In this document: piece by piece, positions 2,478 to 63,394 of the stretch | Layout: each line of letters begins with the position of its first letter | Numbering within the stretch: the first letter of the stretch is position 1 | Origin: a virus | Taxonomy: Duplodnaviria; Caudoviricetes | DNA length: 63,394 nucleotides | Reading direction: 5' to 3' (one strand) | IMG/VR virus record: IMGVR_UViG_3300030060_002858 | Span: 1 to 63,394 of that record | The notes under the pieces: model-generated | Databases searched by the model: none | Told to the model about the DNA's origin: nothing | The model's input: only the letters and a program-made list of their open reading frames with translations | Program-made: the position numbers and the translations under genes

Positions 2478-2550
<73 letters not shown>

Positions 2551-2553
2551 TTA

Positions 2554-2633: not shown

Positions 2634-2635
2634 TT

Positions 2636-2709: not shown

Positions 2710-2721
2710 TTGGAGAATATT

Positions 2722-3678: not shown

Positions 3679-3830
3679 TGAATGATGTACAAGATATTGA
3701 TTGGTTTGAAGTAGCATCCTGTTTTTACTATGCTTCTGGCGGCGAAAGTGGTCTGCCTGATGATGACGGGCTAGACTATCTTTGCAACAAGTATGGTAAG
3801 TATTTTTCATACGATGAAGAGGAAGAATAA
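3678..3830 (+). CDS. small acidic hypothetical protein (50 aa)
   Basis: TAATG coupling; MNDVQDIDWFEVASCFYY...DEEEE. Confidence 0.45.
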   Translation: MNDVQDIDWFEVASCFYYASGGESGLPDDDGLDYLCNKYGKYFSYDEEEE

Positions 3831-3835
3831 ATCCT

Positions 3836-3909
3836 GCCCCGGTAGCTCAGCTGGACAGAGCAGCTGACTTCTAATCAGCAGGTCGTAGGTTCGAGTCCTA
3901 CTCGGGGTG
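3836..3909 (+). tRNA. tRNA-Arg(UCU)
   Basis: Acceptor GCCCCGG/TCGGGGT; anticodon arm GCTGA-CT-TCT-AA-TCAGC; GGTTCGAGTCC. Confidence 0.95.
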
Positions 3910-3911
3910 CT

Positions 3912-4271
3912 ATGAAACTAGATAAATATATTAATACAGCATTGCCTATTGCTGTAGATAACAAAAGAAAAAAGAAGCATGTGTCTTTGATTGTTCGAAA
4001 GGGTGATATTGTTTCTGTGGGTATTAATAAAATGAAGACCCACCCCCTTGCAAAACAATACGGATACAGGTATAATGAAATACATTCGGAGCTAGACGCA
4101 TTGCTTAAGTACAAGGGACCAAAAGATAAACTTGTTCTTGTTAACTTTAGGTTTAATCGTTTTGGTGATATGAGAATGAGTAAACCATGTAAGTTGTGTT
4201 TGCCGTGGTGTTCTGCGGTATTCGATAAAATTATTTATTCCACTGTTGATGGGATGGTCACGGCTCCGTAG
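3912..4271 (+). CDS. zinc-dependent cytidine/dCMP deaminase-fold protein 2
   Basis: HSE and KPCKLC motifs; clear paralogue of 617..1000. Confidence 0.8.
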   Translation: MKLDKYINTALPIAVDNKRKKKHVSLIVRKGDIVSVGINKMKTHPLAKQYGYRYNEIHSELDALLKYKGPKDKLVLVNFRFNRFGDMRMSKPCKLCLPWCSAVFDKIIYSTVDGMVTAP

Positions 4272-4335
4272 CCCAATCGGCAGAGGCAATAGACTTAAAA
4301 TCTATACAGTGTGGGTTCGAGTCCCACCGGAGCTA
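4262..4335 (+). tRNA. tRNA-Leu(UAA) with a short variable loop
   Basis: Acceptor GGCTCCG/CGGAGCT; anticodon arm ATAGA-CT-TAA-AA-TCTAT; GGTTCGAGTCC. Confidence 0.9.
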
Positions 4336-5852: not shown

Positions 5853-6140
5853 ATGGAACAAAAACACGATCAGTTAGCAGGTGGTAATTGGAATGCACAT
5901 AAACCACAAGTATGGAAAAAATTAAGAGAGAAGCATAAAAAACATAAAGCATCAGGCAAAGGTGGTCCTTCAATGCCTGAAAAACATGTGCCGTATGGCG
6001 GTGCAGGCAAGGGTGACATGAATAGAATTACTAACCAAACCAAATATTCTTTGGGCCTAGATCTTATACGCCTTGCAAAAGATAAGGGTAAAGATTCTGA
6101 AGAATATAAAGAAGCCCTTGAGGCTTGGAGGAACGCTTGA
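5853..6140 (+). CDS. hypothetical protein (GKGDxxR motif)
   Basis: GGAGG RBS; GAGKGDMNR. Confidence 0.6.
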   Translation: MEQKHDQLAGGNWNAHKPQVWKKLREKHKKHKASGKGGPSMPEKHVPYGGAGKGDMNRITNQTKYSLGLDLIRLAKDKGKDSEEYKEALEAWRNA

Positions 6141-51400: not shown

Positions 51401-54400
51401 AGGATATAACAAGAGGTTTGAAAAAGCCAAGGCTTACCTAGAAGAACAAGAAAAAGCAAGTAATCCTATTCACCCCGGTACTGTAGCCTATGAAACATTT
51501 AAAAAAATACTTCAAACCACAGATCAACTAAGTGCTGAAAGTATTGGATACTTTAGAGCACTAAATATTCTTAACTCGCAAGAGTATAGGTTAAACGTAG
51601 ATCGACTACAGTTTGTAGCTCAAAGAGTATTGGGGTTAACAGACTTTAGTGTGCAAGACTTTATGGGATTTGAGCAGCACGCCTTGTATCAGCTTATGTT
51701 GCCCACAGCAACTTCAGGAAGAACATATCCGTTAAACACAACCGGACTAAATCCTTTAGGCATCTCTTTAGAAAGAGTAGCAAGAATGCAACCCTTTGTA
51801 AAGGATGGAGTTAGGTACAATGACTTTATTGATTATGTAGAAAGAAACCCCGGACTAGATGAAGCTGAGTTTAAAAAGGATCTAGAAGATTACCTAACCA
51901 ATCACGACGGAGCAGATGCTTTCGGTGCTTTTGATCTTGAAGATCCATCTCTTAGGAAGTTTGAAACTAGAGAAGAGGCTGAAGCTGCTCTTGAAGATCT
52001 AATGATTAAACAAGAGATGATGCTATGGTCTAGTTATGATAAGCCACCTAAGGAAGTATTTAAAGACTATACCGCAGAAGACAGTGATGAAGGATTCTTT
52101 AATAATCTTCTTACACAGTGGCATCAGCACTCAGAGCAAAGGCACTTGACGCTAAAAGAAGAAATAGCTTTCGAACAAGCCGAAGCAGATAGAATGATAG
52201 CAGACGGCAAGAGACCCACAGATAGTCCAGTTCTACAATTAAAAAATAAAGCTGGTGGGTTGGTCAATAAGAAACTAGTTGAAGCATCTGAAGGAGAGTT
52301 TAGATATCTTCCTTATCATGTTTCTGAAAGAAATCCTTCTTCGGTAATGATTCACACAGCAGGTCAAAGAGGACCACTATCTATGCGTCCTCGATTTAAA
52401 GAAAGACAGTACTATGATATGGGACTATTAAGTTTACAGAAGAGGCACGTTCAAGATAGGATTACTAAAGCAATGGGGCCTATTGAAACTATTAGAACAA
52501 ACGCAGATTCTCTAACAGAAGAAGATGCTATGATTAGCGGAGTTAACATAGGACACGCTCCAGCTTGGGATTCTAACAAACTGCCTCAGGTACTTCCTAC
52601 GCTTCCTAGAGCCATTGCCGCAGATCTTAGAACAGACATGGGTCAGAGAGCAGCTAAGATTTATTATGAAGTTTCTATCTGGGCTGAAGAAAGAGGACTC
52701 GCAGATAAACTAAAAGAAGATCCAGAAAACTTTGTACGTTTTTATATTATTAGAGAAATTGAAGAAGAGCGCAAGAGACAACTTAGAAGGACCAGAGAGA
52801 GTAATATTACAAATGAGAATGATATTATTGCAGCAAGAAATAAATGGATTGGAGGACTGCACGATATTAGTAGATACTCTAGAGATTTGAAAGATCCAGA
52901 AGGTAGGCGAGGTCTTCAATTGTTTACAGAAAGACAATCCTTTGCCGCTGTAAATCCAGCTGAAGAAGGCGAACTATACATGGATCTTCTAGTTAATGTA
53001 GCCGACGAAAACAATCCAGATGGTTTCTTGTTTACTAGAAGTCTTTTAGATGACGCATTTAAATTAGGGCCAGTACCTACGGGTGAAAGAATTATTATCA
53101 CGCCAGAAAATGTATCAGATGAAAAGACAATGGAAGAGATATTTGAATTTAAGGATCTTAACTTAGAATCTTGGGCAGTACAAAATGCTGACTTTAATAA
53201 ATTCTTAGCGGCTCAGTTATTTACAGAAGCAATCGGCAAAGCCATGCTAGAGTTTGAAGGCGGTAAGTATAAGAGTGTAGCGTTTACTCCAGATCAATGG
53301 GAATTTGCAATAGATCCAGAAGACCGCAAACCTTTAATTGCACTAGCAAAACAAATGGTCATGGAAATGCCTTCGTTTGAACTTACAGTAGGAATTGAAG
53401 AGTCGCTATACAACGACGATAGTAAGATTTCAACTTATAGGATGACCATTAACAGAGAAGGCGTTGCTCCTGAAAAAGGAAAGGAACGAGATAAGAAGGC
53501 CGTACCAACTCAACAAAGAAATGTGTTTGGGGCAGCAACGGGCTTTGGTATGCAGGTGATGACTAGAACTAAGTTAAAATCTAAAAAGGCAAAGCTTGCT
53601 CTTACACCAGAGCACAGAATGCAGTTATTCTCAATACTAGAAAACGCTCAAACCATGCAGGGAATTACTTTAAGCAATTGGTTAAATAAAGGATTAGGCG
53701 TGAAGTTAACAGAGGACGGTCAGATTGTTAGAGCGGTTCCTATCCAAGATAGAGTAGCAGATGCAATGGGCTATACTGCTCGTCCTATTAGAGACGCAGC
53801 TATTAACGAAGCTGAGGCCCTAAGAAGAGTTAGTTCGGTAGACGGTGAAAGTAGTGTTAGAATGATTGACGACCCTCTTACCAGCGTAAGGGGAGCTAGA
53901 GTTAATGTAGTAGATTTAGATTACTACGCTAGGGATAACTCTTCTTGGGGAGACGGGTCTATTAATACTGCTTGGCTTGAGTCTTACGTTAGTCCTATTA
54001 CTAAACTAATTCATATGCTAGATAGATCGGGAATTCAAGCCGGTAGTGAATTGGCAGATCTTAAGTTAGAACTACAGTCTTTAATTGCTTTAACAAGAGA
54101 ACAGGACAATATGTCTAGTGTTGTTGTAAGATTAATTGCATTAAAACTAGAAGATCCTTCTTTAGATTTTAGAAAAAATAAAATCAAAATGTTTTTTACA
54201 GACGCAGAAAGAAACGGAGATGACTTTAATACTGCTATTAACAAAGCTGACTCAATTATTTTAAAAATTAAAAAACACACATCAGACTATGGAGTTACTA
54301 GAAAACTTCCCGGATATTACGAAGCTAGGCAGTTTATCACAACTCAAGAATATAGTCCTGCTAACTTTGAAGAAACACTTCTTGCTTTTAAAAAGTATCT

Positions 54401-57400
54401 AGGAGATCCTACATTTGTTGGAACAGATGATCAACTAGAAGATGCACTTAGATTTGCTTTTAGAGATTTAGACGAAGAAAGATTAGATATTGACGAAGCT
54501 ATGAGTTTCTTTGGAGGAGAAAGAATTGCTTCAGAATCTTTAGAATTATTTACTAAAGGAACTGAAGAAGAGCTTTTAACATCACTAGGGCCAGCAATTG
54601 AAGACAATCCTGAGTTAGGATTAATGGTCAGAGGTCCAATAAGAAACTTAAATAAATTAATTAGAGAACAAAAAGTTCTTTCAGAAGAAGCTGGGGTAGC
54701 TATTAAGGCTATGCTATTTAGAGCAAATCAGTTAAATCCAGATATACTTCTAAATCTAAAGTTTGAATTTATTACAGAGCGATTAGAGGGAGTAGCCCAA
54801 GCAGAAAGAAAGGGAGATAATTTTACAATTAGACTAGGCTCTAACTTTAAAACTATTACAAAAGATAATCCTTTAACTGCAATTCAAATAGTTGCTCACG
54901 AACTAGCTCACGTTGCTAGGCTAAAATTTATTGCAGATAACTCTAGAGAATATAATGGGTTATTAGGACTTTGGCAAAGCGACGAAGGCAGGGACATGTT
55001 ACGAAAGGCTGTTCAAGCTTTTCATGGTGGAGTATTTACTTCTGAAGCTAAAAAAGAATATGAAAGATATTTAAATAATCCTGAAGAATTTATCGCAGGA
55101 TTTATGTCATACTTTCTTTTAGGAGACACAAATGTTGAGATTAGAGATTTAACTAAAAAACAAAAGGGAATGTTTAATGAGTTAACTTCTATTGTAAAAA
55201 GAATGATGACTTATGTTTCTAATATTTTAAACAATCTTCAAAATGCGTTTTACACTGGAAATGAAAAGTTTGATAAAGAGGTAAGAGCACTTGCTCTTCG
55301 AGTATGGGGACATGATGCAGCGACAGGAAAGCCTGCCCTAAGACAACTTGATTCTGGTCAAGTTGCAGATGCTACATATGGATGGAGTCAAAGATTTAAA
55401 GATACTAAAGAATTTGTAGTAGACCCTGATAAAGATTTACAAATAATTAAAGGACACAAAGAATTAGCTAGACTAAACTCAAAGGCTGAACTTACAGAAG
55501 AAGAAATTCTTACTAAACATAAAATCAATGACTTCTTATACGCAGAAGGTACTTATGCTCAAGAAAACTTTGGTTTGAATGGCCTATCACGCTCTGATTA
55601 TTTAGCAACTCTTCAACAGTTAAAAGAAAAATATCCATCTAAAAAACGAAGTGATTTAGAAAATGATTCTAGAAATAACGATGAATCTATTATTGATATA
55701 CGAGAGATACTTGCTCAAGGTACTAATAAAGAAAAGGCCACTGCTTTAGCTTACCTTATGGATGCTGTATCAAAAACATACGGAGATCCTATAGCTAAAG
55801 GTCTAGGTGCCATTGGAAACAGTATAGCAGATAGCATTCCTAATGTTAAGCAAGCAGCGGCAAAACAAGCATTATTTAACTTACTACTAGGTGATACCGG
55901 ATCGGGAGAAACATTTGGTGCTGAGTTCTTACTGCCTATTCTTATTACGCAAATGCTAGATGATAATATTGTTACTGCTACGGGTAATTATCTAAACACA
56001 GCAGGAACTCCTTCTGTTAGAACAAATATTCAAAAGCTAGAGACGTTCTCAACAAGTATTAGAACCAGTAAAAATCAAATTGCAGCTGCTCTTAGAGGTA
56101 TTACAGATGTAGCAAAGAGAACAGTATTTGAGTCGTTTGTTAGTGACACCGATAAAAAAGTTATGGCTAAGTTAGACAAACAGCTTATTACAAGTGTAAC
56201 TAAATTAAACGAAGGAGAGGCAGAGTTTACTTTCGATCTTTCAGAAGATGCATTAGGGGTAGCACTAAATGATAAACAAAAAGCAGTTATTCTAAAAGCT
56301 CTTGGAGAAATTAAAAATACGTTTACTCAAATGGCAGAAGATAATATTAGAGACGGAATATCTATTGGTGAATTTGGCGAAGGTTTTACGCAAGTAGTTC
56401 CATATCGTTTAGGCAATTCATTGCGTGCCGAAGATGTAAGAGCACCAGAGTTTAAAGATACAATGACTAGCTTAATTCAAAAAAGATTATCTCAAGGAAT
56501 AGAAAGCGGTCTTCTAGATGGAACAGTAATGGCTGCGGTAGGACTTATCCCGCACTTTGGAAATAACACAGCAGCAAGAGCAGATCTAGAAAGACTTAAT
56601 GCTCAGTATCCTCAATTGGTAGATGCTATTTTAGCCGAAGCAGTTAAACAAGAGGGAGATACTGAAAGACAAACTAAAGAAAAAGTTAACCTATTAAAAG
56701 CAAAACTAAATGATACCGCTAATGTAGATTCTTTTGTAGAGTTACAAGTAGGTACTGGGCGTTTCTTAAACAAACTTGCACAGGGAACAATCACTTTAGA
56801 TAGCATATTTACTAGGGCTAGTCAACGTATTGCTTTTGTAACAGAGTATAAGACTGCTGTAGAAAATGCTAACAAAAGATCAGCAGATGCTCGAAATAGA
56901 TTAGATGCTTTAACAAAAGAAAGTGGAGACATTCGCTCTAATACATTCTTTAGTCCTACCACAAAAGATACTCCTGTAGCAGCCTTTGATAGAGCAGCTG
57001 ATAACCCAATTGAATTTATTTTTAGAAACTTTCACAAGAGAGCTTCTAGGGGAGCGTACTATCCTAACGATAACTGGGCAATCCCTAGTGTAAGAGAAGC
57101 ACTAGAAGCTAATGAAGATATCCAAAAATATTTTGTAACAGACATGGCAGCATTAGCTGAAAATGCAAAACAAGGTCTATTTAATGATATTGCTGAAAAG
57201 AAAATGTTTAGAGAGTTCGGAGTACACGGAAACATTGAGCATGTATTAACTCTTATTAGTAGCGTAGCCTTTAGCGATTATTCAGTAATGGCTCCAGACG
57301 GAACGTCAATAGAAGGTCAACGAGTAAAACAAGTTGTAGAAGTATTAAGAAACAAACATAATGCTTTAAGAAATATTATTGAAAAACCAGAAGGAACTAA

Positions 57401-59141
57401 TACGGGTTCAGTAGAAAGTTCTATTGTAGATTATGCTAATGCTGCAACAAGAATTGCATATGGAGGCAACCTATTCCTTGCTACTACTATTGTAGAAAAC
57501 GGATACAGTGCAGTAGACGAACTAATCGGAAGAGGAAATATTGTAGGATTTTTAAGAAGTGCTTTAGCTCCCTTTAGTCAACTTACAAATAGAACAGAAA
57601 GAGCAAGAGTATTAAAAGATTTTGCTTACCTAATTGAGTCAATGACACAAGGATTTTTACCTGAATACGAAAGACCGTTAGGTACAGAAGGAGATAGTAC
57701 GGTATTAAAAGCACTCAAGGGCTTGGGTTCTGCAAACATGAGGCTTGCTAAGTGGCAACTTAAAAACATTACCGCAGCCCGTGCAATAAATATTAGATCT
57801 TTTATTCAGTCATATTTAAAACCAAACAAAGATGGAACGTCTAAGTTAAGTGAATTAGCTAGATTGTTAGAAGAATCTAATCTTTCTAAATTACCAATTG
57901 AAGAACAAGAACCAGCTTTAAAAGGAATACTAAGAAAGGCAAAGATTGGAACAAACAACTTACCAATAATTTCTTACCTTATTAAAGCAGGATTATTAGA
58001 ACCTACTAGATTAAGTATGCTTTTAGAAATGATGCCTGCCGAAGGACGTTACAGTCCATTTGAAATGACTCAGGAATTGTTTACCACTAAATCTCCTAGA
58101 ACTAATGCAAAAGAGTTTCAACAAAAACTTGACATTATTACAGCCCTTAAAAATATTGAAAGAAGATATGTAGAAGAAGCTATTCTAGCTCCCAATGCAT
58201 TTGATACTGCTACTGGTCCTAGAGGAACATTTGAACAAATCTTTGAAATCTATCGTAGATATCCCGTTCTCTTTGCAAGCCAACAAGTAATTAGAAAGTC
58301 AAGCAGGGTTGGAGTAGTTAGAGCAGGTTTTAGTTTAACTTCCTTGATTCTTTTAGATATGCTTTATATGGCTGCTCTATCAATGGCAGCAGGTAAACCA
58401 CTTGAAGATGTTGTAAAGGATTATGAAGAAGCTCCTCTAGCTAGTGCAGGCAAGCTTCTTTTAAGAACTCCAATCTTTGGTAGATGGTTAGCTATGGTTG
58501 GTCCAGTTTTAGCTAAAGGTCTAGAAGCTATTGAAAAAGGTCGTATGCCATCTGGATATGAACTTACTCAAGCTTTCCAGTCTGGTTCTGGTTTTATTCC
58601 TGTAGCAGCTTTAGGAGCAGCAGCAGGTTCTCTTCTAACAACATTCCAAACTATAGGGGGCGTATTTGGACTTAATGAGATGCCTAGAGGACAAGAACTT
58701 GTTAACTCTTTACGATTAATTCCAGCAGGAGACGCAGCAATTAGACTGGCTATCTTCTCCTTAGCGGGAGATAGTATTGAAAGGAAGAAAAGACGAGGAC
58801 CAAGCGGAGCAGGATCTTATGGAGGACAGCAGCCAGTCACAGGGCTTCACTATGGAATGCACAGAAACGATGCTGCTTTTACTTGGGAAAGCATGTACAA
58901 GGACATGATGACTCCTATTCTAAATGGCGAGTTACCTCAGGTTGTAAAAGAGTATTATAAAGACATAGAACAAATGGATGCAATGCAAGAGCTGGGAGCC
59001 ACGCCCGCCTCTCCACAACCCGCCGCGCCGCCCGCAAAACCCGCGCCGTCGCAGCCAGAGATCACTACACCTAAAGTAGATCCTGTAGACTCTATACTAA
59101 ATCAAGGACCTACCAAGGCACCTGATACTTTACTCGAATAG
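45462..59141 (+). CDS. giant (4559 aa) polyvalent virion protein with T7/N4-like RNAP motifs and a zincin peptidase motif
   Basis: AAGGAG RBS; uninterrupted 13.7-kb ORF; DRTASG, SDFY, REIFKVPVMRRIYG, SGRTYPLNTTGLNPLG and HELAH..EEFIA motifs. Confidence 0.7.
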   Translation: MTTQGINKWATEPLPFYMDNQEEMRESVGQYNDFVQGLNPLTDGDNALNVPDQLVVDLNTQELVRGNYGITEAMALMSARGYFGGMFEDNQYQQKYSANMQLGMYRGDKYKEGDLLKFGADEEKLLRYYAKKSPWNLSRLSDPFIDETLDGVEDMWDAPILNNLNDSPNDLMEAEAPPDWSPQEALKVLQLRDPEMYAVYANSLGASNLEQIVGEAKNPYDFFYTLTDTIQTAALNTTIAKWYEDASNTEIALEYARNFIIEGIVNDPDLAASLGITAGLTTIGSIAGLKAGVIATLAYKIPKTLYQGVKYVKFINMIRKAATTTIRYMPENIGPTLIQKIPAMKNFSRGGFVQKHLIANRIGDAGEGLVTGGLAEAGNQWRQSTAGVIDEFSYGGIFKEALFEAALSPAINPAIGGIYSLGGGAVNLSYMVSDSVAAKVIGEKGHKAFSRFIDTTKKYLNADDAIKRLENAQLSLELSSQVNDLTLEGTEVEIQDDEAKPDRPDGILSIILGAIWDQTGLSKGDFLTTVKEILADFQAEAADPSHPRNKLGVDQEILLSEIAQEVVNRNRDVILEANDGDTSSFEKILGWTQHHLRLASDAKKEGKTYKEYTEKIIADNEEWKLLAPQVLEAVKEKMGDKFDSSTTEEKLDVALEYMQETILKQQQAIRDLDTSTKDKEETADGLEEELEAAEPKPDPKPEDAPTGGEPKGEDDKPKRKPPPGDGPIERRAELIERLKRMKERAEKAKAEIQEKLDKGFKGVNRKTKENIVELGRKIDEELAFVEGELESFLETHGLEDGEVKDSIQLMKTLETELNVLKETLSKDITDTKDGILFGFVRLNKLRAAREKAGLLLFRDLNLENSKRTEEGKPELSKLPWDKTQEDTREAWKELAELTKGDESKAAQRIRQFVNDLESGKEEGITMGGVKNTFTNYMNMLGTVMKKHEERYNKREDYKKHVSLFKQYKAARKNYQRLMSSIYRSETLKDIQQFNAIQLQQTGLREKKEQESVLNARRALFNEFIAEKEASGEDITMEEFLNFLHPYSEQAQTEAAAIERDASKGKETLTIEEAKRIEGKEYQSVKDQLKYLSIGKLSGINKGGRFKYVRGNWEHQHSDSDILGTSYDPEFVLNESNYGKELDTDVVFTRDLRSDLEAWIELEQKILAIASHTDPSKGIAAWRIHAALPPYFRDFLGLGPYVVFGRGNILGAENSALMPTEALDHNSLDLTDEKSISELQRYQHLLRYDPQKILAIIRAWKDRGLAKIDGWEARETSFILDELSKEMQNEGDPNSAANLFYTQKLLERVHNQSRAINMANWTKRQGEGGGYIIAVDPDTGFPTEFTNSAGTYKREALYHAKERLQFLFGTRRFTELQQVAKSLGLLTEISRTKEDGRTEIIIRDREGNVRADVVEYLTEQIGEQTDINITDLGNGNEDYASAQIAGYGIVDFMSQKPMPAVQQRSVVLDKDGNTVPTESNEDSETASLPTDIRLPQEGETNAAMPIPVMKLAELIQNFKARERMRYILSKDTFTDAERAAYKEWVEAKWSDVLAGMDPDPTGENAQIFVVPQIVGGSLHEAVMSRAEAKEFLLELMLDIPRNAEAFIHDQVTRKRGSALMFNEGQGEKEINVLDKEGNIVTKKIKDLNVEGGLMFDLSHGDHMLVPLGRIGEIMAIEAMGPQFAGLTDIVIDKVVQYSDAARKEGTLDELLAFENWSDRTASGVFEMKLLSLAGDADSTIEIEVDGKTKKVNAPKLLDMIRDGVIEPGTKAESDFYLSTAIIAAPLFAMGKKGGLQTLFDVINKNDIRSVKDLQEKEAGLSEGDKKKLKLLREIFKVPVMRRIYGGSKPNFDVEFSEGGKGYEALKKAGMTSEEDIAALKKVLFSGNGGATHISKTILIDYALGVNDRTKYLVQKYLGIDQTRSVPLLDTWKELVKLDNKALSAELERSQTHIRLLEDSLRQKYEIDNPADLTFEQWKKTKGYNKRFEKAKAYLEEQEKASNPIHPGTVAYETFKKILQTTDQLSAESIGYFRALNILNSQEYRLNVDRLQFVAQRVLGLTDFSVQDFMGFEQHALYQLMLPTATSGRTYPLNTTGLNPLGISLERVARMQPFVKDGVRYNDFIDYVERNPGLDEAEFKKDLEDYLTNHDGADAFGAFDLEDPSLRKFETREEAEAALEDLMIKQEMMLWSSYDKPPKEVFKDYTAEDSDEGFFNNLLTQWHQHSEQRHLTLKEEIAFEQAEADRMIADGKRPTDSPVLQLKNKAGGLVNKKLVEASEGEFRYLPYHVSERNPSSVMIHTAGQRGPLSMRPRFKERQYYDMGLLSLQKRHVQDRITKAMGPIETIRTNADSLTEEDAMISGVNIGHAPAWDSNKLPQVLPTLPRAIAADLRTDMGQRAAKIYYEVSIWAEERGLADKLKEDPENFVRFYIIREIEEERKRQLRRTRESNITNENDIIAARNKWIGGLHDISRYSRDLKDPEGRRGLQLFTERQSFAAVNPAEEGELYMDLLVNVADENNPDGFLFTRSLLDDAFKLGPVPTGERIIITPENVSDEKTMEEIFEFKDLNLESWAVQNADFNKFLAAQLFTEAIGKAMLEFEGGKYKSVAFTPDQWEFAIDPEDRKPLIALAKQMVMEMPSFELTVGIEESLYNDDSKISTYRMTINREGVAPEKGKERDKKAVPTQQRNVFGAATGFGMQVMTRTKLKSKKAKLALTPEHRMQLFSILENAQTMQGITLSNWLNKGLGVKLTEDGQIVRAVPIQDRVADAMGYTARPIRDAAINEAEALRRVSSVDGESSVRMIDDPLTSVRGARVNVVDLDYYARDNSSWGDGSINTAWLESYVSPITKLIHMLDRSGIQAGSELADLKLELQSLIALTREQDNMSSVVVRLIALKLEDPSLDFRKNKIKMFFTDAERNGDDFNTAINKADSIILKIKKHTSDYGVTRKLPGYYEARQFITTQEYSPANFEETLLAFKKYLGDPTFVGTDDQLEDALRFAFRDLDEERLDIDEAMSFFGGERIASESLELFTKGTEEELLTSLGPAIEDNPELGLMVRGPIRNLNKLIREQKVLSEEAGVAIKAMLFRANQLNPDILLNLKFEFITERLEGVAQAERKGDNFTIRLGSNFKTITKDNPLTAIQIVAHELAHVARLKFIADNSREYNGLLGLWQSDEGRDMLRKAVQAFHGGVFTSEAKKEYERYLNNPEEFIAGFMSYFLLGDTNVEIRDLTKKQKGMFNELTSIVKRMMTYVSNILNNLQNAFYTGNEKFDKEVRALALRVWGHDAATGKPALRQLDSGQVADATYGWSQRFKDTKEFVVDPDKDLQIIKGHKELARLNSKAELTEEEILTKHKINDFLYAEGTYAQENFGLNGLSRSDYLATLQQLKEKYPSKKRSDLENDSRNNDESIIDIREILAQGTNKEKATALAYLMDAVSKTYGDPIAKGLGAIGNSIADSIPNVKQAAAKQALFNLLLGDTGSGETFGAEFLLPILITQMLDDNIVTATGNYLNTAGTPSVRTNIQKLETFSTSIRTSKNQIAAALRGITDVAKRTVFESFVSDTDKKVMAKLDKQLITSVTKLNEGEAEFTFDLSEDALGVALNDKQKAVILKALGEIKNTFTQMAEDNIRDGISIGEFGEGFTQVVPYRLGNSLRAEDVRAPEFKDTMTSLIQKRLSQGIESGLLDGTVMAAVGLIPHFGNNTAARADLERLNAQYPQLVDAILAEAVKQEGDTERQTKEKVNLLKAKLNDTANVDSFVELQVGTGRFLNKLAQGTITLDSIFTRASQRIAFVTEYKTAVENANKRSADARNRLDALTKESGDIRSNTFFSPTTKDTPVAAFDRAADNPIEFIFRNFHKRASRGAYYPNDNWAIPSVREALEANEDIQKYFVTDMAALAENAKQGLFNDIAEKKMFREFGVHGNIEHVLTLISSVAFSDYSVMAPDGTSIEGQRVKQVVEVLRNKHNALRNIIEKPEGTNTGSVESSIVDYANAATRIAYGGNLFLATTIVENGYSAVDELIGRGNIVGFLRSALAPFSQLTNRTERARVLKDFAYLIESMTQGFLPEYERPLGTEGDSTVLKALKGLGSANMRLAKWQLKNITAARAINIRSFIQSYLKPNKDGTSKLSELARLLEESNLSKLPIEEQEPALKGILRKAKIGTNNLPIISYLIKAGLLEPTRLSMLLEMMPAEGRYSPFEMTQELFTTKSPRTNAKEFQQKLDIITALKNIERRYVEEAILAPNAFDTATGPRGTFEQIFEIYRRYPVLFASQQVIRKSSRVGVVRAGFSLTSLILLDMLYMAALSMAAGKPLEDVVKDYEEAPLASAGKLLLRTPIFGRWLAMVGPVLAKGLEAIEKGRMPSGYELTQAFQSGSGFIPVAALGAAAGSLLTTFQTIGGVFGLNEMPRGQELVNSLRLIPAGDAAIRLAIFSLAGDSIERKKRRGPSGAGSYGGQQPVTGLHYGMHRNDAAFTWESMYKDMMTPILNGELPQVVKEYYKDIEQMDAMQELGATPASPQPAAPPAKPAPSQPEITTPKVDPVDSILNQGPTKAPDTLLE

Positions 59142-59970: not shown

Positions 59971-60090
59971 ATCGACTAGGGGGTCACGAATTTATCTGAG
60001 GTGATGTATAGTATTGCGCTGTTGCAGTACCCCCCGTAACCCTGTTCGAAAGGATTTGGAATTATTGTTCTTAGCTGGATACTGTTCGTC

Positions 60091-60210
60091 ATGATGGTTG
60101 TTGTCATGGTACTGGCAACCATCTCACCGTTGTTCTTTTCTTCTGAAGAGAACGATGAGGATTATCTGGAACCGGAAGAAGTAGACCCGGAGACTGGAAG
60201 GTACCACTAA
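60091..60210 (+). CDS. possible small membrane-anchored acidic peptide
   Basis: MMVVVMVLATISPLFFSSEENDEDYLEPEEVDPETGRYH; start uncertain. Confidence 0.3.
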   Translation: MMVVVMVLATISPLFFSSEENDEDYLEPEEVDPETGRYH

Positions 60211-60315
60211 CACACACCGCCTCACGCTCCCTTTACTGGGAGCATGAGGTATTCCGCAGGACTAACCCCGTCAAGGTGACGGACTAATCCTGTTACTCTA
60301 ATGGAGGGTATCCAT

Positions 60316-60702
60316 ATGGATGCTACCATTACCGTACATCGGCGTAACACTGGAACGCCGATTGAGTTCAGGACGAACGTCCTGTTCGCGTCTTCTTTCG
60401 AGAAGGCACTTCAGGATGGCAACGCCACGGAGCTGGAGCAGATGATCGTCAAGATCAAGAAGCTTCACGACTACGTGCCGGAGTCCGAAGACAGCTTCGT
60501 CTCGGAACCTCATGTCTTCGACACGATTCGTGCTGACGGACATCGATGGTACTGTGTCGCTCGTACCTGCGTCACGGCTCAGGAGTTTGAGCATCTTGAG
60601 AGAGGTCTGGAAATCATGTGGGTTCCCGAACCCTACCAGACCCTCACCGACTGGACCTTGGACATCAAGGAAGCGTCGAAGGATCTCAAGCTGTTCATCT
60701 GA
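60316..60702 (+). CDS. hypothetical early protein (GC-rich codons)
   Basis: GGAGG RBS at 60303-60307 favours ATG 60316; strong G/C third-position bias. Confidence 0.7.
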   Translation: MDATITVHRRNTGTPIEFRTNVLFASSFEKALQDGNATELEQMIVKIKKLHDYVPESEDSFVSEPHVFDTIRADGHRWYCVARTCVTAQEFEHLERGLEIMWVPEPYQTLTDWTLDIKEASKDLKLFI

Positions 60703-60972
60703 ACTCACCAGCCCTCACTGTTCCCGAAAGGGAATGGTGAGGCTTAAGGATTGTGGTTGCAAAGGATGCAACCAATAGAGATGTCTTCTCTAACACAAGG
60801 TAGTGTGGTGTAGAGAAGAGAGAATGTATGCAGACCCGTACTTGTTGTGCTGGGTCGAGGCCCTATTCGAAAGGATGTAATTTGGGCCTGTTCGTGTTTG
60901 TGGATCTAGCACGTATGCTAGGTTCGGTTCCTAACCCATCTGGTCTCAGAAGAGACAGAAAGAATTTACTCT
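60703..60972 (+). ncRNA. hairpin-dense intergenic element (candidate structured RNA, leader or promoter array)
   Basis: Seven consecutive inverted repeats; see findings. Confidence 0.45.
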
Positions 60973-62811
60973 ATGAGTAAGCTCAAGATGGCTAAGGACT
61001 TGAGGCACAGGATCCGCAGCTATGCGGACTCCCTCCTCCAGTCCAAGCTCAAGTGGTGGCTGGAGGACAAGAAGTCCGAAAGCTGGATCATGTCCGAGTT
61101 GTCCATCCCGGTGTTCATGCAGTTCCGGGATGACCTCACCCTCGATACCACTCCCATCAAGATCGATGGCAAGGAGTCTCGTCTCCTTGAGGTGGACGAT
61201 CTCAAGTCCGTTCAGCGAGAGATCTTCATCGCCCTCGATCAGAACATGGAGCGGTTGGAGTTGGACGGCTGGGAAGCTCCCCAGCGTCGTCTGGCTCATC
61301 GCACGCCTCCGACCCTCGATGGTCAGTTCGAGCCTGTGGTCGCTCGCAGGGGGGATCTCAAGATCTCCTCGGAGCAGAAGCAGGCCATGCAGCATCTCAC
61401 CAACACGCCTTGGGTCATCAACCAGAAGAACTGGGATGACATCAAGGAGTTCAGGGAGAGTCTGTCGGACGAGGATCGTAACAAGATCTTCTACGACTAC
61501 GAGGACGAAGAGGTCTCGGCTCTGATGACGGAAGAGGAACAGAGCGGCGACAAGCTCGCTTCTCTCTTCGACCGCATCGGAGACACGATCTTCTTCTTGG
61601 TCACCCGGAGGATGGATGAGGCGGGGCGTATGTATCCCTGTCCCATGCATCCGGTCTACAGCCGGTGGCTGCGGTGCGTCTTCCAGTTCCCCTCCCAAGA
61701 GTTGACGGAGGACGGCTGGAAGTTCCTGCGGAAGCACATCAAGGAGTCCTACGGACTCTGCAACGATGCCAAGCGGGATGCGTGGGCGAGGAACTGCGAC
61801 CGGGATCCCCAGAAGCTCTTCACCGAGAAGGGCAAGAAGGGTGCTGATGAGCTGGCTGCTGCACGTGGCTGGCTCGAGGCACGGGAAACCGGAGCCACTG
61901 GCTACACCGTCTCCAGAGACTTCGTGGCTCAGGGCATGGGACTGATCGCGGCAAGAGAAGGATGCCCGTGGCATCACGATCTCGTCAACGTCAATTCCGA
62001 CCAGTTCGTCTCGGCACACGATCGGTTCTCCGGTCGTATGCAGGACATGATCCGTAACTTCAGGATCCACAGCTTCGATGCTCTCAAGGGCATCTCCAAG
62101 AGCTGCATCACCCCCGGCATGTATGGGGGTGGCGGGAGTGCGATCTCCTGCAAGCTCACGGACATGTCCAAGGATGCCTTCGGTGAGTGGAACTTCGGCG
62201 AAGACGGGAAGAAGTTGCCCGAAATCGACCCGATCCTGCTCGACTACATCGGTAAGGACTTGTCCCCCGATGAGCAGATGGATGCTATCTTCAGCCTCTC
62301 GAAGAAGCTGACCCGCATCCTCCACTCGACCTTCCCGTTCCTCAGTCCCTATCAGGAAGCGGTTCGCCGCCACTGGAAGGGACACATCCAGAACGGCAAG
62401 TTCCCGGTCTTCACCGGAACCGATGGCTACGAGTACCACTCCTCTCCGTTCAACGTGAACAAGAAGTTGACCCGTTCGGTCAGGTTCTCTCGCTACCGCG
62501 ACGGCAAGAGGGTGGGGCAGCCCAGCGTTCAGTGCTGGCTGCACCAGCTGGAAGAGTCCGGCACGCCCATGTGTGCCAAGATCATCTTCATGCTGGACAG
62601 GTTGATCGCGATTCGGATCATCCTTGCACTCGCCAAGCGGGGCATTCATGTCTGCTCCATCCACGATGCGTTCCTCGTTCACCCGAACTACGGATACATC
62701 TTGGAGCAGGTGGCGACCGAGGCGTACAACTCCGTCATGTCGGAGAACGCCGATGTCATCGGTAGGATCTACCACGCCCTGCCGAACGATGCTGTCCTCC
62801 TGAGGGCCTAG
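60973..62811 (+). CDS. second, highly divergent T7-superfamily single-subunit RNA polymerase (RNAP2)
   Basis: Motifs in canonical order: AMQHLTNTPWVIN; MDEAGRMYP; motif A RDFVAQG; motif B KGISKSCITPGMYG; AKIIFMLD; motif C IHDAF. Confidence 0.85.
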   Translation: MSKLKMAKDLRHRIRSYADSLLQSKLKWWLEDKKSESWIMSELSIPVFMQFRDDLTLDTTPIKIDGKESRLLEVDDLKSVQREIFIALDQNMERLELDGWEAPQRRLAHRTPPTLDGQFEPVVARRGDLKISSEQKQAMQHLTNTPWVINQKNWDDIKEFRESLSDEDRNKIFYDYEDEEVSALMTEEEQSGDKLASLFDRIGDTIFFLVTRRMDEAGRMYPCPMHPVYSRWLRCVFQFPSQELTEDGWKFLRKHIKESYGLCNDAKRDAWARNCDRDPQKLFTEKGKKGADELAAARGWLEARETGATGYTVSRDFVAQGMGLIAAREGCPWHHDLVNVNSDQFVSAHDRFSGRMQDMIRNFRIHSFDALKGISKSCITPGMYGGGGSAISCKLTDMSKDAFGEWNFGEDGKKLPEIDPILLDYIGKDLSPDEQMDAIFSLSKKLTRILHSTFPFLSPYQEAVRRHWKGHIQNGKFPVFTGTDGYEYHSSPFNVNKKLTRSVRFSRYRDGKRVGQPSVQCWLHQLEESGTPMCAKIIFMLDRLIAIRIILALAKRGIHVCSIHDAFLVHPNYGYILEQVATEAYNSVMSENADVIGRIYHALPNDAVLLRA

Positions 62812-62834
62812 CCTCAAGTCCTACACACCACGAT

Positions 62835-62867
62835 CTCCCCTGCCCTTCGGGGTGGGGGAGTTTCTTT
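62835..62867 (+). terminator. intrinsic terminator after RNAP2
   Basis: CTCCCCTGCCC-TTCG-GGGTGGGGGAG followed by TTTCTTT. Confidence 0.88.
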
Positions 62868-63197
62868 CATTCCGGGGTTAATCACTAACGGTCAACACTG
62901 AGACCTGAGAGTGAGGGCAATACACTCCCGATACTGCGTCTCCTCCTTATCACTGTGCCGCCCACACGTCCCGCGCCCGCACGGCGGGGCGTGCGGGAGG
63001 GTTGATTTGGTTCGCGGCCCCCCGAGGCGGCGACCCAGAGTGGGTTTGACGTAAAAGTGGGTGTAAGAGTAGTTATCCCCTTAGGTCTGCCCTGATAGTC
63101 TGTTAATTAGGGTGTGATGATCGGGTAGGGTCACACCTAGACTGGATGCTAGGCCGTACACCTAGACAGTCCTTAGTACTACCCTTGGAGTAAAGTC

Positions 63198-63394
63198 ATG
63201 CCCCAGAGCATCGACATGACCCCACTTCCTCCCAAGGAGAAGAAGCCCCACTGGTCTCAGAGGGACTTGACTCCCAAAGAGGTGATCAACCTCGTCTCCA
63301 ACTGCCGTAAGGCGATGGGACAGAGCAACGACTGGTCTCCTGCCCACAAGCAGGCACTGGTTGCCAAGGCCGCAGAGCACGGCATCACCCTCAA
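63198..63394 (+). CDS. hypothetical protein, N-terminal part (runs off the window end)
   Basis: GGAG RBS; MPQSIDMTPLPPKEKKPHWSQRDLTPKEV... open to the window end; GC-rich codons. Confidence 0.6.
   Translation, partial: MPQSIDMTPLPPKEKKPHWSQRDLTPKEVINLVSNCRKAMGQSNDWSPAHKQALVAKAAEHGITL

What the first reader, a model, noticed from the sequence alone, without database searches (positions are those of the whole stretch)
60973..62811. Second, minimal and very divergent RNAP with intact catalytic residues
Seen in canonical order: AMQHLTNTPWVIN (T7 AINIAQNTAWKIN); DEAGRMYP (DxxGR); LTEDGWKFL; motif A Asp316; motif B K372-x3-K376-x7-Y384-G (T7 R627/K631/Y639/G640, with R changed to K); a basic beta-hairpin-like stretch KLTRSVRFSRYRDGKRVGQPSVQ where the specificity loop would lie; and motif C IHD565. 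Only ~130 aa precede the thumb, so most of the T7 N-terminal promoter-binding domain is missing. It is too dissimilar from RNAP1 to be a recent duplicate. Inference: an active polymerase that needs an accessory factor (possibly 60316..60702) or a pre-melted or hairpin template, or that pulls the genome into the cell.
Basis: partly seen in the sequence, partly recalled or inferred. Interest (0 to 1): 0.88.

Follow-up and report, generated by a model that had tools for sequence, protein, structure and literature searches.

The report
Second, minimal RNA polymerase in phage
This marine T7-like phage carries, beside its normal RNA polymerase, a real and probably active stripped-down second polymerase in a G+C-rich gene island. 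Two-polymerase phages of this group are already in print, so it confirms rather than discovers.

Summary
Confirmed. ORF 60973-62811 (612 aa) is a real, conserved single-subunit RNA polymerase of the T7 superfamily.

- Pfam misses it. Profiles of its relatives hit only RNA polymerases in the PDB.
- An AlphaFold model (pLDDT 91.1) superposes on T7 RNAP at Z 27.6 over 448 residues.
- The equivalents of T7 D537, K631, Y639 and D812 are kept. R627 is K and H784 is F.
- About 100 residues replace T7's ~266-residue front domain.
- The gene lies in a ~3.4-4 kb island of ~55% G+C (GC3 0.65-0.81) in a ~38% G+C genome. The island is conserved in 7 related loci, so it is not an assembly chimera.
- The phage's five tRNAs all read A-ending codons. 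This suggests the island is translated early with host tRNAs.

The need for a cofactor or a melted template is untested.

Not new in kind. Du et al. 2025 (PMC12361551) describe this group (AG-10.1) with a giant protein and an additional ~650-aa RNAP. This scan also found the same arrangement on other DNA (e1-6200162, e1-6249022, e1-6173816, e1-6245486, e1-6278561). Interest is moderate.

The parts
60973..62811 (+). RNAP2: 612-aa minimal single-subunit RNA polymerase (stop codon included)
   Evidence: ORF; homologues; PDB profile hits are RNAPs only; AF2 pLDDT 91.1; VIA Z 27.6 to T7 RNAP
60973..61284 (+). Reduced N-terminal domain (residues 1-104; helices 8-31, 36-50, 75-97 and beta-hairpin 59-74)
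   Evidence: Secondary structure of the model. VIA ranges: model 105 corresponds to T7 267; model 6-610 corresponds to T7 95-882 in 1cez
61423..61578 (+). Short thumb-like region (residues 151-202) with an acidic, low-confidence loop at 175-192
   Evidence: pLDDT <50 at 175-192, flanked by helices 151-163 and 194-202; assignment as thumb is by position, inferred
61615..61629 (+). DxxGR block (D215-R219)
   Evidence: R219 invariant in 30 of 30; aligns with T7 D421/R425
61918..61920 (+). Motif A catalytic Asp (D316)
   Evidence: Invariant in 30 of 30; column of T7 D537; ends strand 313-317
62086..62127 (+). Motif B (K372-x3-K376-x7-Y384-G385)
   Evidence: K376 in 28 of 30 and Y384 in 29 of 30; columns of T7 K631 and Y639; K372 at the R627 register
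62449..62550 (+). Basic beta-hairpin region at the place of the T7 specificity loop (residues 493-526)
   Evidence: Strands 493-504, 507-509, 512-515 and 518-526; net charge +5 over the columns of T7 735-775
62587..62589 (+). F539 at the position of T7 H784
   Evidence: H in T7, RNAP1 and N4 gp16; F in the window's clade
62662..62667 (+). Motif C (H564-D565)
   Evidence: 29 of 30 each; columns of T7 H811/D812; at the turn between strands 561-563 and 566-569
62835..62870 (+). Intrinsic-terminator-like hairpin with T-run after RNAP2
   Evidence: 11-pair stem, 8 GC pairs, TTCG loop, TTTCTTTC tail
60703..60972 (+). Structured leader of RNAP2: conserved hairpins, several with AAGGAUG-type loops
   Evidence: 6-sequence alignment A4; RNAalifold gives 49 pairs, 19 with compensatory changes
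60316..60702 (+).
   Evidence: GGAGG ahead of ATG 60316; 70-72% identical orthologues in L002, L003, L007; no Pfam or PHROG family
60091..60210 (+). 39-aa small ORF with a hydrophobic N-terminus and an acidic tail; first gene of the island
   Evidence: Read. The tail EPEEVDPETGRYH matches the end of L007:115-531. Followed by a hairpin with compensatory changes
63198..63394 (+). Third island ORF, cut by the end of the record
   Evidence: orthologues in L005, L006, L008 (163 aa in L005); no Pfam family
59971..63394 (.). G+C-rich island (about 48-63% G+C in 300-nt windows) that holds RNAP2
   Evidence: the same island in L002-L008; GC3 0.69-0.81 against 0.23-0.36 elsewhere
6125..8581 (+). RNAP1: canonical 818-aa T7-type RNA polymerase
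   Evidence: PF00940 E 6.9e-81; phrog_414 E 3.9e-157
2478..4335 (+). Five phage tRNAs, all for A-ending codons (Lys-UUU, Ile-UAU, Met-CAU, Arg-UCU, Leu-UAA)
   Evidence: ARAGORN
45462..59141 (+). Giant 4559-aa protein gene just upstream of the island
   Evidence: no Pfam or PHROG family; homologues of 3397 and 4650 aa

Best explanation
RNAP2 is a genuine and probably active DNA-dependent RNA polymerase of the T7 / N4-RNAPII / mitochondrial single-subunit superfamily, reduced to 612 residues in one chain. It is the 'additional RNAP' of the large-genome marine T7-like phages that Du et al. 2025 call AG-10.1.

Shown:
- The fold.
- Conservation of the two catalytic Asp, the O-helix Lys and the sugar-selecting Tyr.
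- A front domain cut to about 100 residues.
- A long basic hairpin where T7 has its specificity loop.
- A place in a conserved G+C-rich island, with hairpin-punctuated gene units, between the giant-protein gene and the tRNA/early block that precedes RNAP1.

Inferred:
- The island's host-like codon use (GC3 about 0.8, almost no A-ending codons) lets it be translated with host tRNAs before the phage's own tRNAs for A-ending codons are made.
- RNAP2 is therefore an immediate-early enzyme. It reads its own promoters through the basic loop and hands over to RNAP1 by transcribing the next block (tRNAs, nucleotide genes, RNAP1).

Who transcribes RNAP2 itself is open. It could be the host RNAP or an injected protein.
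For: Identity:
- Profile of 6 close homologues against the PDB: the only hit at E<=1 is N4 RNAPII chain 6dt7_B, 5.2e-6.
- 11-row profile: 11 of 11 hits at E<=0.01 are RNAPs.
- 30-row profile: 18 of 18 hits are RNAPs, the best at 2.5e-27.
- hhalign against RNAP1: 96.4%, 426 columns. Against T7: 97.7%.
- AF2 pLDDT 91.1. Foldseek E 1.5e-14. VIA Z 27.6 to T7, 26.9 to human mtRNAP, 20.4 to N4 mini-vRNAP. The first non-RNAP row is at Z 15.7.

Activity:
- D316 in 30 of 30, R219 in 30 of 30, K376 in 28 of 30, Y384 in 29 of 30, H564 and D565 in 29 of 30 each.

Context:
- L002, from an 82-kb record, runs giant protein, island with RNAP2 (65% identity), early genes, then RNAP1.
- High G+C is seen in 7 of 7 close loci.
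- RNAP2 GC3 is 0.65-0.81 in 7 of 7 loci, against 0.23-0.36 for six genes outside the island.
- The tRNAs are Lys-UUU, Ile-UAU, Met-CAU, Arg-UCU and Leu-UAA.
- Island codon table: AAA 1 of 54 Lys, ATA 0 of 49 Ile, TTA 0 of 70 Leu, AGA 3 of 54 Arg.
- The loop region is basic, net +5.

Literature:
- Sections 17 and 18 of PMC12361551 were read. They describe 23 AG-10.1 members with an additional ~650-aa RNAP. It lies downstream of a 3274-5566-aa protein gene and upstream of the typical RNAP, among small unknown genes.
Against: - No expression or activity data exist.
- Pfam PF00940 does not match this protein even at E<=1.
- The T7 H784 position is Phe and the R627 position is Lys. Substrate handling may differ or activity may be low.
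- No convincing promoter family was found for either polymerase.
- The one island-specific motif (3 sites; 0 of 500 shuffles reach 3) was defined post hoc. By the strict pattern it is in only 1 site each of L002 and L005, and in none of L007 and L008.
- The early timing rests only on codon use, the tRNA set and gene order.
- The AF2 alignment held canonical RNAPs (P0032, P0034, P0036), which may pull the model toward the T7 fold.
Confidence: 0.6

Rival explanations
1. N4-RNAPII mode. RNAP2 cannot open or recognise double-stranded promoters. It works only on melted or single-stranded DNA, after recruitment by a small island-encoded cofactor such as the 128-aa protein at 60316-60702.
For: - N4 RNAPII chain 6dt7_B is the best PDB sequence hit of the close-family profiles.
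- In a 36-row tree, N4 gp16 lies with the minimal family on one side of a branch with SH-aLRT 100. The six canonical T7-type RNAPs lie on the other side.
- The front domain and thumb are cut down, as described for N4 RNAPII (passages of PMC4496689).
- The RNAP is surrounded by small ORFans, as in N4.
- The 128-aa gene is 70-72% conserved next to RNAP2 in the three further loci aligned (L003, L002, L007).
Against: - The 128-aa protein has no likeness to N4 gp1 or gp2 (probability 0.1%).
- It is absent from L005, L006 and L008, where an unrelated gene sits.
- The specificity-loop region is basic (+5). N4 gp16 is -1 over the same columns. N4's loop is reported as too acidic to bind DNA (passage of PMC7145618 citing Molodtsov and Murakami 2018).
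- 511 residues of the model align to the T7 promoter complex 1cez from T7 residue 95 on, including a beta-hairpin at 59-74. Part of the promoter-opening domain may therefore be kept.
Confidence: 0.25
2. The island is a horizontally acquired or mobile cassette. RNAP2 serves the cassette's own genes, or a counter-defence role, rather than the phage's main transcription relay.
For: - The composition break at 59965-59973 is sharp.
- Contigs of two other runs and L003 switch to different sequence exactly there.
- Many island-only contigs of 3.3-3.6 kb exist.
- Du et al. suggest horizontal transfer from other phages (section 17).
Against: - The island sits at the same place, between the giant-protein gene and the early block, in all loci long enough to tell (W, L002, L004, L005, L006).
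- The ORF upstream of L003's breakpoint is a diverged homologue of the window's 182-aa ORF. The break therefore marks a fast-evolving neighbour, not a different insertion site.
- No integrase, transposase or terminal repeats are seen in the island.
- No relative was found in 185,579 species genomes by the pattern scan, nor in 50,697 phage records.
Confidence: 0.1
3. RNAP2 is catalytically impaired or has another activity, for instance priming DNA synthesis or using unusual nucleotides. The reason would be the changed R627 and H784 positions.
For: - F539 stands where T7, RNAP1 and N4 gp16 have His.
- The residue four before the Lys is Arg in all 9 PF00940-type rows, but Arg in only 5 of the 30 family rows, with Lys in 11.
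Against: - Both catalytic Asp, the Lys, the Tyr and D542 are conserved in 28-30 of 30 rows despite 20-25% overall identity. That indicates selection on the active site.
- Half of the family (15 of 30) keeps the His.
Confidence: 0.07
4. Assembly chimera: foreign G+C-rich DNA was joined to a phage contig.
For: - G+C jumps from 38% to 55% within about 100 bases.
- The record ends inside the island.
Against: - The same island is embedded in an independent 82-kb record with 65%-identical RNAP2 and syntenic flanks on both sides.
- It is also present in L004-L008.
- A 1709-base contig of run X1 bridges 58697-60405. That run may be the source of the window and so is not independent.
Confidence: 0.02

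Closest known systems
Additional (~650 aa) RNAP of marine Autographiviridae group AG-10.1 (Du et al. 2025, Commun Biol 8:1240, PMC12361551; sections 17 and 18 read)
   Same: - A large-genome marine T7-like phage.
- A giant protein gene (4559 aa here, 3274-5566 aa in the paper).
- An extra short RNAP downstream of that gene and upstream of the typical ~800-aa RNAP, among small unknown genes.
- Low identity to typical RNAPs.
   Different: - The sections read give no structure, no motif analysis, no G+C island, no codon or tRNA argument and no link to N4 RNAPII.
- This protein is 612 aa.
- Whether this record is one of their 23 could not be checked, because the supplements are closed.
Coliphage N4 RNAPII (gp15 269 aa + gp16 404 aa; PDB 6dt7)
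   Same: - A minimal T7-type RNAP with a cut-down front domain and thumb.
- The best PDB sequence hit of the close-family profiles.
- It groups with the minimal family against canonical RNAPs (SH-aLRT 100).
- It is encoded among small early ORFans.
   Different: - One chain of 612 aa instead of two chains totalling 673 aa.
- No gp1 or gp2 homologue.
- hhalign of the close family against gp16 gives only 44% probability, and 0.7% against gp15.
- A basic rather than acidic specificity-loop region.
- Lys and Phe where gp16 has Arg and His.
- The phage also has a full-size T7-type RNAP.
T7 RNA polymerase and canonical Autographiviridae RNAPs (Pfam PF00940)
   Same: - Fold: Z 27.6, 448 residues aligned.
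- DxxGR, motifs A, B and C, and a specificity-loop-like hairpin.
   Different: - About 270 residues shorter.
- The front domain is about 100 residues, against about 266 in T7.
- No PF00940 hit.
- BLASTP against the window's own RNAP1 gives E 0.021.
Mitochondrial RNA polymerases (yeast Rpo41, human POLRMT)
   Same: - The best hits of the 30-row profile (E 2.5e-27) and of Foldseek (E 1.5e-14).
- They are cofactor-dependent relatives of T7 RNAP (PMC4496689 Table 1).
   Different: - They carry long N-terminal extensions (chains of 1088-1262 residues).
- No sign of Mtf1 or TFB2M-type partners here.

Membership tests
T7-like single-subunit RNA polymerase superfamily (fold and motifs) | Right-hand polymerase fold superposable on T7 or mitochondrial RNAP | tested here: met
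   AF2 pLDDT 91.1. VIA Z 27.6 with 448 aligned at rmsd 4.2 to 8dh5_E, and Z 26.9 to 6erp_B. Foldseek E 1.5e-14.
T7-like single-subunit RNA polymerase superfamily (fold and motifs) | Two catalytic Asp (T7 D537 in motif A, D812 in motif C) | tested here: met
   D316 in 30 of 30 and D565 in 29 of 30 rows, in the T7 columns. Their distance in the model was not measurable.
T7-like single-subunit RNA polymerase superfamily (fold and motifs) | Motif B Lys and Tyr (T7 K631, Y639) and the DxxGR Arg (T7 R425) | tested here: met
   K376 in 28 of 30, Y384 in 29 of 30, R219 in 30 of 30.
T7-like single-subunit RNA polymerase superfamily (fold and motifs) | Arg at T7 R627 and His at T7 H784 (roles recalled, not from a call) | tested here: not met
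   K372 and F539 here. All 9 PF00940-type rows have Arg, and T7, RNAP1 and N4 gp16 have His. These residues are conserved in known members but do not define the fold.
Pfam PF00940 (RNA_pol) as modelled | Score at or above the gathering cut-off (22 bits) | tested here: not met
   0 families at E<=1 for this protein. 6 of 30 family members do match. P0032, P0034 and P0036 were identified among them.
N4 RNAPII type | Heterodimer of two gene products (gp15 + gp16) | tested here: not met
   A single 612-aa ORF here and in all 7 related loci.
N4 RNAPII type | Truncated N-terminal domain and thumb | tested here: met
   Model 105 corresponds to T7 267. The thumb-like region is short, with a disordered loop at 175-192. 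The N4 description comes from PMC4496689.
N4 RNAPII type | gp2 or gp1-type cofactor encoded nearby | tested here: not met
   hhalign of the 128-aa family against N4 gp2 and gp1 gives probability 0.1% each. A non-homologous cofactor is not excluded.
N4 RNAPII type | Closer kinship to gp16 than to canonical T7-type RNAPs | tested here: inconclusive
   The tree split has SH-aLRT 100, but it comes from a quick search with long branches and gp16 fills 49% of the columns. hhalign of the close family gives 44% against gp16 and 96.4% against RNAP1.
AG-10.1 additional RNAP (Du et al. 2025) | Short extra RNAP downstream of a 3274-5566-aa protein gene and upstream of the typical RNAP, among small unknown genes | tested here: met
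   Giant ORF 45462-59141 (4559 aa), RNAP2 at 60973-62811, RNAP1 at 6125-8581. L002 shows the continuous order. Paper sections 17 and 18.
AG-10.1 additional RNAP (Du et al. 2025) | Placement of the genome in AG-10.1 by their core-gene phylogeny, or listing in their data | not testable with these tools

The most novel reading that the evidence does not exclude
A codon-programmed polymerase relay in a T7-type phage.

- The G+C-rich island is kept at host-like codon use so that its genes, above all a 612-aa self-sufficient RNAP, are made first with host tRNAs.
- RNAP2 then transcribes the A+T-rich block that carries the phage tRNAs and RNAP1.
- RNAP1 runs the rest of the genome.
- The hairpin-rich, GGA-loop leader would gate RNAP2 translation.

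If RNAP2 also initiates alone on double-stranded DNA, it would be the smallest self-sufficient T7-type RNA polymerase known to me. That ranking is recalled, not searched.
Probability: 0.25. Interest if true: 0.7.

Novelty: new member of a known kind. Interest (0 to 1): 0.42.

Why it matters
It shows that the 'additional RNAP' annotated in large marine T7-like phages is a properly folded, active-site-conserved enzyme of only 612 residues. That is shorter than the two N4 RNAPII chains together (673 aa).

It belongs to a wider family of 548-642-aa proteins that Pfam mostly misses: 24 of the 30 members scanned have no PF00940 hit.

If it is active, it is a candidate very small transcription enzyme for biotechnology. 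It would also show that T7-type phages can run staged, multi-polymerase programmes like N4.

The conserved G+C island paired with tRNAs for A-ending codons gives a concrete, testable idea of how such a phage orders its earliest gene expression.

Tried and rejected
- **First fold.** AF2 with only 6 close homologues gave pLDDT 42.6 and was unusable. The 30-row alignment was needed.
- **Binding of RNAP2 and the 128-aa protein.** Complex prediction returned no verdict (scores 0.00, 0.60, 0.00; controls not run). It is no evidence either way.
- **Expression.** The look-up of sequencing runs listed no RNA holder, so nothing can be said on expression.
- **Read laying.** Only contigs were laid. Parts without cover mean nothing.
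- **Ambigrammatic reading.** Codon-aligned antisense ORFs cover all three island genes. I rejected selection for them. A-ending codons are rare overall (A3 0.05). The antisense frame is broken in L002 (3 stops), L005 and L006 (6 each) and L008 (2).
- **Giant protein as a third polymerase.**
  - No Pfam family and no PHROG family.
  - No PDB sequence hit for residues 1401-2600.
  - hhalign against the RNAP2 family gives probability 4.6% with one sequence and 0.9% with 3 homologues.
- So it is not shown here. The aligned piece is the LNxxxYxxN ...
- **Promoters.**
  - The sigma-70 scan found no + strand site ahead of the island genes.
  - The search for 14-mers repeated between intergenic regions gave no promoter family.
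- **Rfam.** No match in the island at E<=1.
- **More relatives.**
  - Single-protein scans of viral contigs found none.
  - Genome contigs found none.
  - The 'phages' tblastn found none.
  - The search for homologous proteins with the alignment returned only the same 5.
- **Island ORFans.** No Pfam family for 8 of 8 at E<=0.1. The Atlas gave only unnamed clusters for the 128-aa protein.
- **Not in print.** I did not search specifically for 'smallest T7-like RNAP', so that ranking is recalled.
Full report
**What the window is.**
- The window is a whole IMG/VR virus record of 63,394 bases. It is linear, with estimated completeness 94%.
- It encodes a T7-type gene set on the + strand:
  - an 818-aa RNA polymerase (6125-8581; PF00940 E 6.9e-81);
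  - a primase-helicase, a family A DNA polymerase and a class II ribonucleotide reductase;
  - a portal, a capsid protein and a T7-type terminase.
- It also encodes a 4559-aa protein (45462-59141) with no Pfam or PHROG family.
- G+C is 0.33-0.44 in 2-kb windows up to base 60,000. It then rises to 0.48-0.63 in 300-nt windows from about 59,970 to the end.

**Checking the observation.**
- Pfam finds nothing, even at E<=1.
- PHROGs matches only the C-terminal 60 residues: phrog_2051 'RNA polymerase' at E 1.6e-8 and phrog_414 at 0.0095.
- The protein is nevertheless conserved.
  - 5 full-length homologues of 53-89% identity were found.
  - 32 representatives at E<=1e-3 were found among 1.84 billion proteins, 8 of them at <=1e-30. 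Most are 548-642 aa long.
- In a 30-row alignment R219 and D316 are invariant. R234, G321, K376, Y384, G485, D542, H564 and D565 are kept in at least 90% of rows.

**Is it a T7-type polymerase?**
- Sequence profiles against the PDB:
  - The profile of the 6 closest proteins has one hit at E<=1. It is chain B of N4 RNAPII (6dt7_B, 5.2e-6).
  - An 11-row profile hits 11 distinct PDB sequences at E<=0.01, all RNA polymerases: 6dt7_B at 1.8e-5 and ten mitochondrial RNAPs at about 1e-4.
  - The 30-row profile hits 18, all RNA polymerases: mitochondrial at 2.5e-27, 6dt7_B at 9e-23, T7 at 1e-14 and 6dt7_A at 2.5e-6.
- Caveat on those profiles:
  - 6 of the 30 rows match PF00940.
  - I identified three of them (P0032, P0034, P0036). 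None of these is in the 11-row set.
  - The other three were not identified.
- hhalign:
  - The 11-row profile against the window's own RNAP1 gives probability 96.4%, E 1.3e-9. The match is collinear over 426 columns (RNAP2 132-593 with RNAP1 296-780).
  - The 30-row profile against T7 RNAP gives 97.7%, E 1.8e-12.
- Structure:
  - AlphaFold2 with 6 rows failed (pLDDT 42.6).
  - With 30 rows it gave pLDDT 91.1 and pTM 0.90. Only residues 1-3 and 175-192 fall below 50.
  - Foldseek's top rows are yeast and human mitochondrial RNAP and T7 RNAP (best E 1.5e-14).
  - VIA-align gives Z 27.6 to a T7 elongation complex (448 aligned, rmsd 4.2; model 33-611 with T7 44-883).
  - It gives Z 26.9 to human mtRNAP and Z 26.2 to the T7 promoter complex 1cez (511 aligned, rmsd 6.4).
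  - It gives Z 20.4 to N4 mini-vRNAP. The first non-RNAP row, a DNA polymerase, is at Z 15.7.

**Active site.**
- In a 36-row MAFFT alignment that includes T7, three other Autographiviridae RNAPs, RNAP1 and N4 gp16, the equivalences are:

| RNAP2 | T7 | Kept in the 30 family rows |
|---|---|---|
| D215 / R219 | D421 / R425 | R in 30 |
| D316 | D537 | 30 |
| K376 | K631 | 28 |
| Y384 | Y639 | 29 |
| D542 | D787 | 28 |
| H564 / D565 | H811 / D812 | 29 each |

- In the model D316 ends strand 313-317. H564-D565 sit at the turn between strands 561-563 and 566-569, which is the usual palm arrangement.
- Two positions depart from known enzymes.
  - T7 H784 is F539. The family has H 15, F 8 and Q 4 of 30. 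T7, RNAP1 and gp16 have H.
  - The residue four before the Lys (T7 R627) is K372. It is Arg in all 9 PF00940-type rows. In the 30 family rows it is K 11, R 5 and other 14.
- The roles of R627 and H784 are recalled, not from a call.

**Architecture.**
- Model residue 105 corresponds to T7 267. About 100 residues therefore stand for T7's ~266-residue front domain.
- These residues form three helices and a beta-hairpin at 59-74.
- The thumb-like part is short, with an acidic disordered loop at 175-192.
- Long beta-hairpins at 493-526 lie where T7 has its specificity loop.
- Over the columns of T7 735-775 the net charge is +5. The window's clade ranges from -1 to +7, T7 is +1, RNAP1 is +5 and N4 gp16 is -1.
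- BLASTP of RNAP2 against RNAP1 gives only E 0.021 over 35 residues. It is not a recent duplicate.

**The island is real and conserved.**
- A related 82-kb IMG/VR record (L002, RNAP2 65% identical) shows a continuous order: giant protein, an 86-aa ORF homologue, then a ~4-kb stretch of 52-61% G+C. That stretch holds a 123-aa ORF, RNAP2 and small ORFs. Genes of ~40% G+C follow that match window 1466-2044 and 5179-5502, and then RNAP1.
- So the window's end joins its start, and the record is simply cut inside the island.
- Seven metagenome loci were found.
  - The six close ones (L003-L008, 37-99% identity) are all G+C-rich around RNAP2 and fall to 35-48% in their flanks.
  - The distant one (L009, 26%) is not.
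- RNAP2 GC3 is 0.65-0.81 in 7 of 7 loci. For RNAP1, DNA polymerase, capsid, giant protein and the two ORFs just upstream it is 0.23-0.36.
- L003 is 95.6% identical to the window from 59956 to 63195 and unlike it at the DNA level before that. Its upstream ORF is still a diverged homologue of the window's 182-aa ORF.
- Contigs of two other runs also change sequence at 59965-59973. A 1709-base contig of run X1 bridges 58697-60405, but X1 may be the source of the window.
- Chimerism is thus excluded. The left edge of the island is a boundary between a conserved module and a fast-changing neighbour.

**Codon use and tRNAs.**
- The three island ORFs have GC3 0.69-0.81 and A3 0.05-0.09. Counts are AAA 1 of 54 Lys, ATA 0 of 49 Ile, TTA 0 of 70 Leu and AGA 3 of 54 Arg.
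- The phage's five tRNAs (2478-4335) are Lys-UUU, Ile-UAU, Met-CAU, Arg-UCU and Leu-UAA. They read exactly the A-ending codons that the rest of the genome uses and the island avoids.
- My inference is that the host is richer in G+C than the phage. The island would then be translated with host tRNAs before the phage tRNAs exist. This rests on composition only.
- The full-length codon-aligned antisense ORFs are a by-product of this bias. They are broken in L002, L005, L006 and L008.

**Island anatomy.**
- The genes, in order:
  - a 39-aa hydrophobic-plus-acidic ORF (60091-60210);
  - a 128-aa ORFan (60316-60702, GGAGG ahead of the ATG);
  - RNAP2;
  - a third ORF cut by the record's end (63198-).
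- Each is followed by a stable hairpin. The one after RNAP2 is terminator-like (62835-62870). Those after the first two genes show compensatory changes among relatives.
- The 270-nt RNAP2 leader folds into conserved hairpins. Of 49 predicted pairs, 19 have compensatory changes. Several hairpins have AAGGAUG-type loops.
- None of 8 island ORFans from relatives has a Pfam family.
- RNAP2 is present in 8 of 8 sources. The 128-aa gene is in 5 of 8.

**Kinship.**
- The tree is a quick IQ-TREE run on 36 rows and 592 columns, with SH-aLRT support.
- It separates the six canonical T7-type RNAPs (T7, three phage RNAPs, RNAP1, P0032) from all other rows by a branch with support 100.
- On the other side:
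  - N4 gp16 pairs with the single-chain 634-aa P0036 (support 93).
  - A 27-row 'minimal' clade (support 100) splits into the window's 8-row clade (99) and 19 others (95).
- Branches are long, gp16 fills 49% of the columns, and no mitochondrial or vRNAP rows were included. I therefore treat the N4 link as moderate support only.
- hhalign of the close family is in fact stronger against RNAP1 (96.4%) than against gp16 (44%) or gp15 (0.7%).

**Comparison with print.**
- Du et al. 2025 (Commun Biol 8:1240, PMC12361551; abstract, passages and sections 17 and 18 read) describe AG-10.1.
  - These are marine uncultivated Autographiviridae with large genomes, all carrying a 3274-5566-aa protein gene.
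  - 23 members have an additional ~650-aa RNAP. It lies downstream of the large gene and upstream of the typical RNAP, among small unknown genes.
  - They note low identity to typical RNAPs and suggest horizontal origin and division of labour.
  - Four of their large proteins carry PF00940.
- This window fits that description. I could not check whether it is in their data, because the supplements are closed.
- For N4 (PMC4496689, passages):
  - RNAPII is gp15 (269 aa) plus gp16 (404 aa), with a truncated front domain and thumb.
  - It binds only single-stranded DNA and needs gp2 and gp1.
- PMC7145618 (passages) reports, citing Molodtsov and Murakami 2018, that N4 RNAPII's specificity loop is too acidic to bind DNA. 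I could not read the 2018 paper.
- This scan has met the same arrangement before on other DNA. Examples are e1-6200162, which already cites AG-10.1, and e1-6249022, e1-6173816, e1-6245486 and e1-6278561.

**Mechanism and verdict.**
- Shown: the gene, its family, its fold, its conserved active site, its reduced front domain and its place in a conserved island with host-like codon use.
- Inferred: it is active on rNTPs, because Tyr is kept at the Y639 position.
- Inferred: it is made very early.
- Inferred: it reads its own signals, possibly through the basic loop, and hands over to RNAP1.
The candidate partner is not universal and is unlike gp1 and gp2.
- The finding is solid but belongs to a kind already in print. 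What is added here:
  - the structural and residue-level confirmation;
  - the two unusual active-site neighbours;
  - the conserved G+C island with its matching tRNA set;
  - the hairpin-punctuated layout.

Noticed in passing
window 60703-60972 (also L002 9717-9982, L005 2890-3149, L007 1084-1341, L008 343-610): The RNAP2 leader holds five conserved hairpins, with 19 of 49 pairs showing compensatory changes. There are repeated AAGGAUG-type loops, for example GGTTGC-AAAGGAT-GCAACC and CTACAC-AAGG..-GTGTAG. From memory these resemble CsrA/RsmA binding sites or decoy Shine-Dalgarno sequences. Rfam finds nothing.
   Followed up: partly
window 60252-60266, 60923-60935, 62870-62889: The motif TTC[CG]G-N(3-12)-CTAAC follows the inter-gene hairpins. 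It occurs 3 times on the + strand of the 3.4-kb island and once in the other 60 kb (shuffle mean 0.10; 0 of 500 shuffles reach 3). The pattern was chosen post hoc. It is found once each in L002 and L005 and not in L007 or L008. It is a candidate island promoter or processing signal.
   Followed up: partly
window 60946-62817 (-), 60298-60708 (-), 63162-63392 (-): Codon-aligned antisense ORFs span all three island genes, which contain no TTA, CTA or TCA codons. This is explained by the general lack of A-ending codons, and it is not conserved in L002, L005, L006 or L008.
   Followed up: yes
window 2478-4335: Five tRNA genes (Lys-UUU, Ile-UAU, Met-CAU, Arg-UCU, Leu-UAA), all for A-ending codons. 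This points to a host richer in G+C than the phage.
   Followed up: partly
window 45462-59141 (residues about 2030-2090 of the 4559-aa protein): The only piece of the giant protein that hhalign aligns to the RNAP2 family is ALNILNSQEYRLN ... SGRTYP, which resembles the LTNTPWVIN ... DEAGRMYP blocks. Probability is only 4.6% with one sequence and 0.9% with 3 homologues. Homologues of 3397 and 4650 aa exist. The 4650-aa one has a longest contig of 63,265 bases, the same length as listed for the RNAP2 relative P0012, so they may share a record.
   Followed up: partly
window 59422-59970: A 182-aa ORF with a weak dockerin-like C-terminus (PF00404, E 0.54, below threshold). It is replaced by a diverged homologue in L003 and is absent from L002. 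The island's left edge abuts it, and several metagenome contigs change sequence at 59965-59973.
   Followed up: partly
L005 1868-1900 and 2432-2464: A near-identical ~30-nt element (GGGCTAACCATGCTATGTTGTATGGTAAACCCT) occurs twice in one relative's island, ahead of two different small genes. The ORF called from L005 2398 probably starts later than listed.
   Followed up: no
window 60919-60932 and 3886-3899: A T-arm-like sequence (TAGGTTCGGTTCCT) in the RNAP2 leader resembles the T-arm of the phage tRNA-Arg (TAGGTTCGAGTCCT). ARAGORN calls no tRNA there.
   Followed up: no
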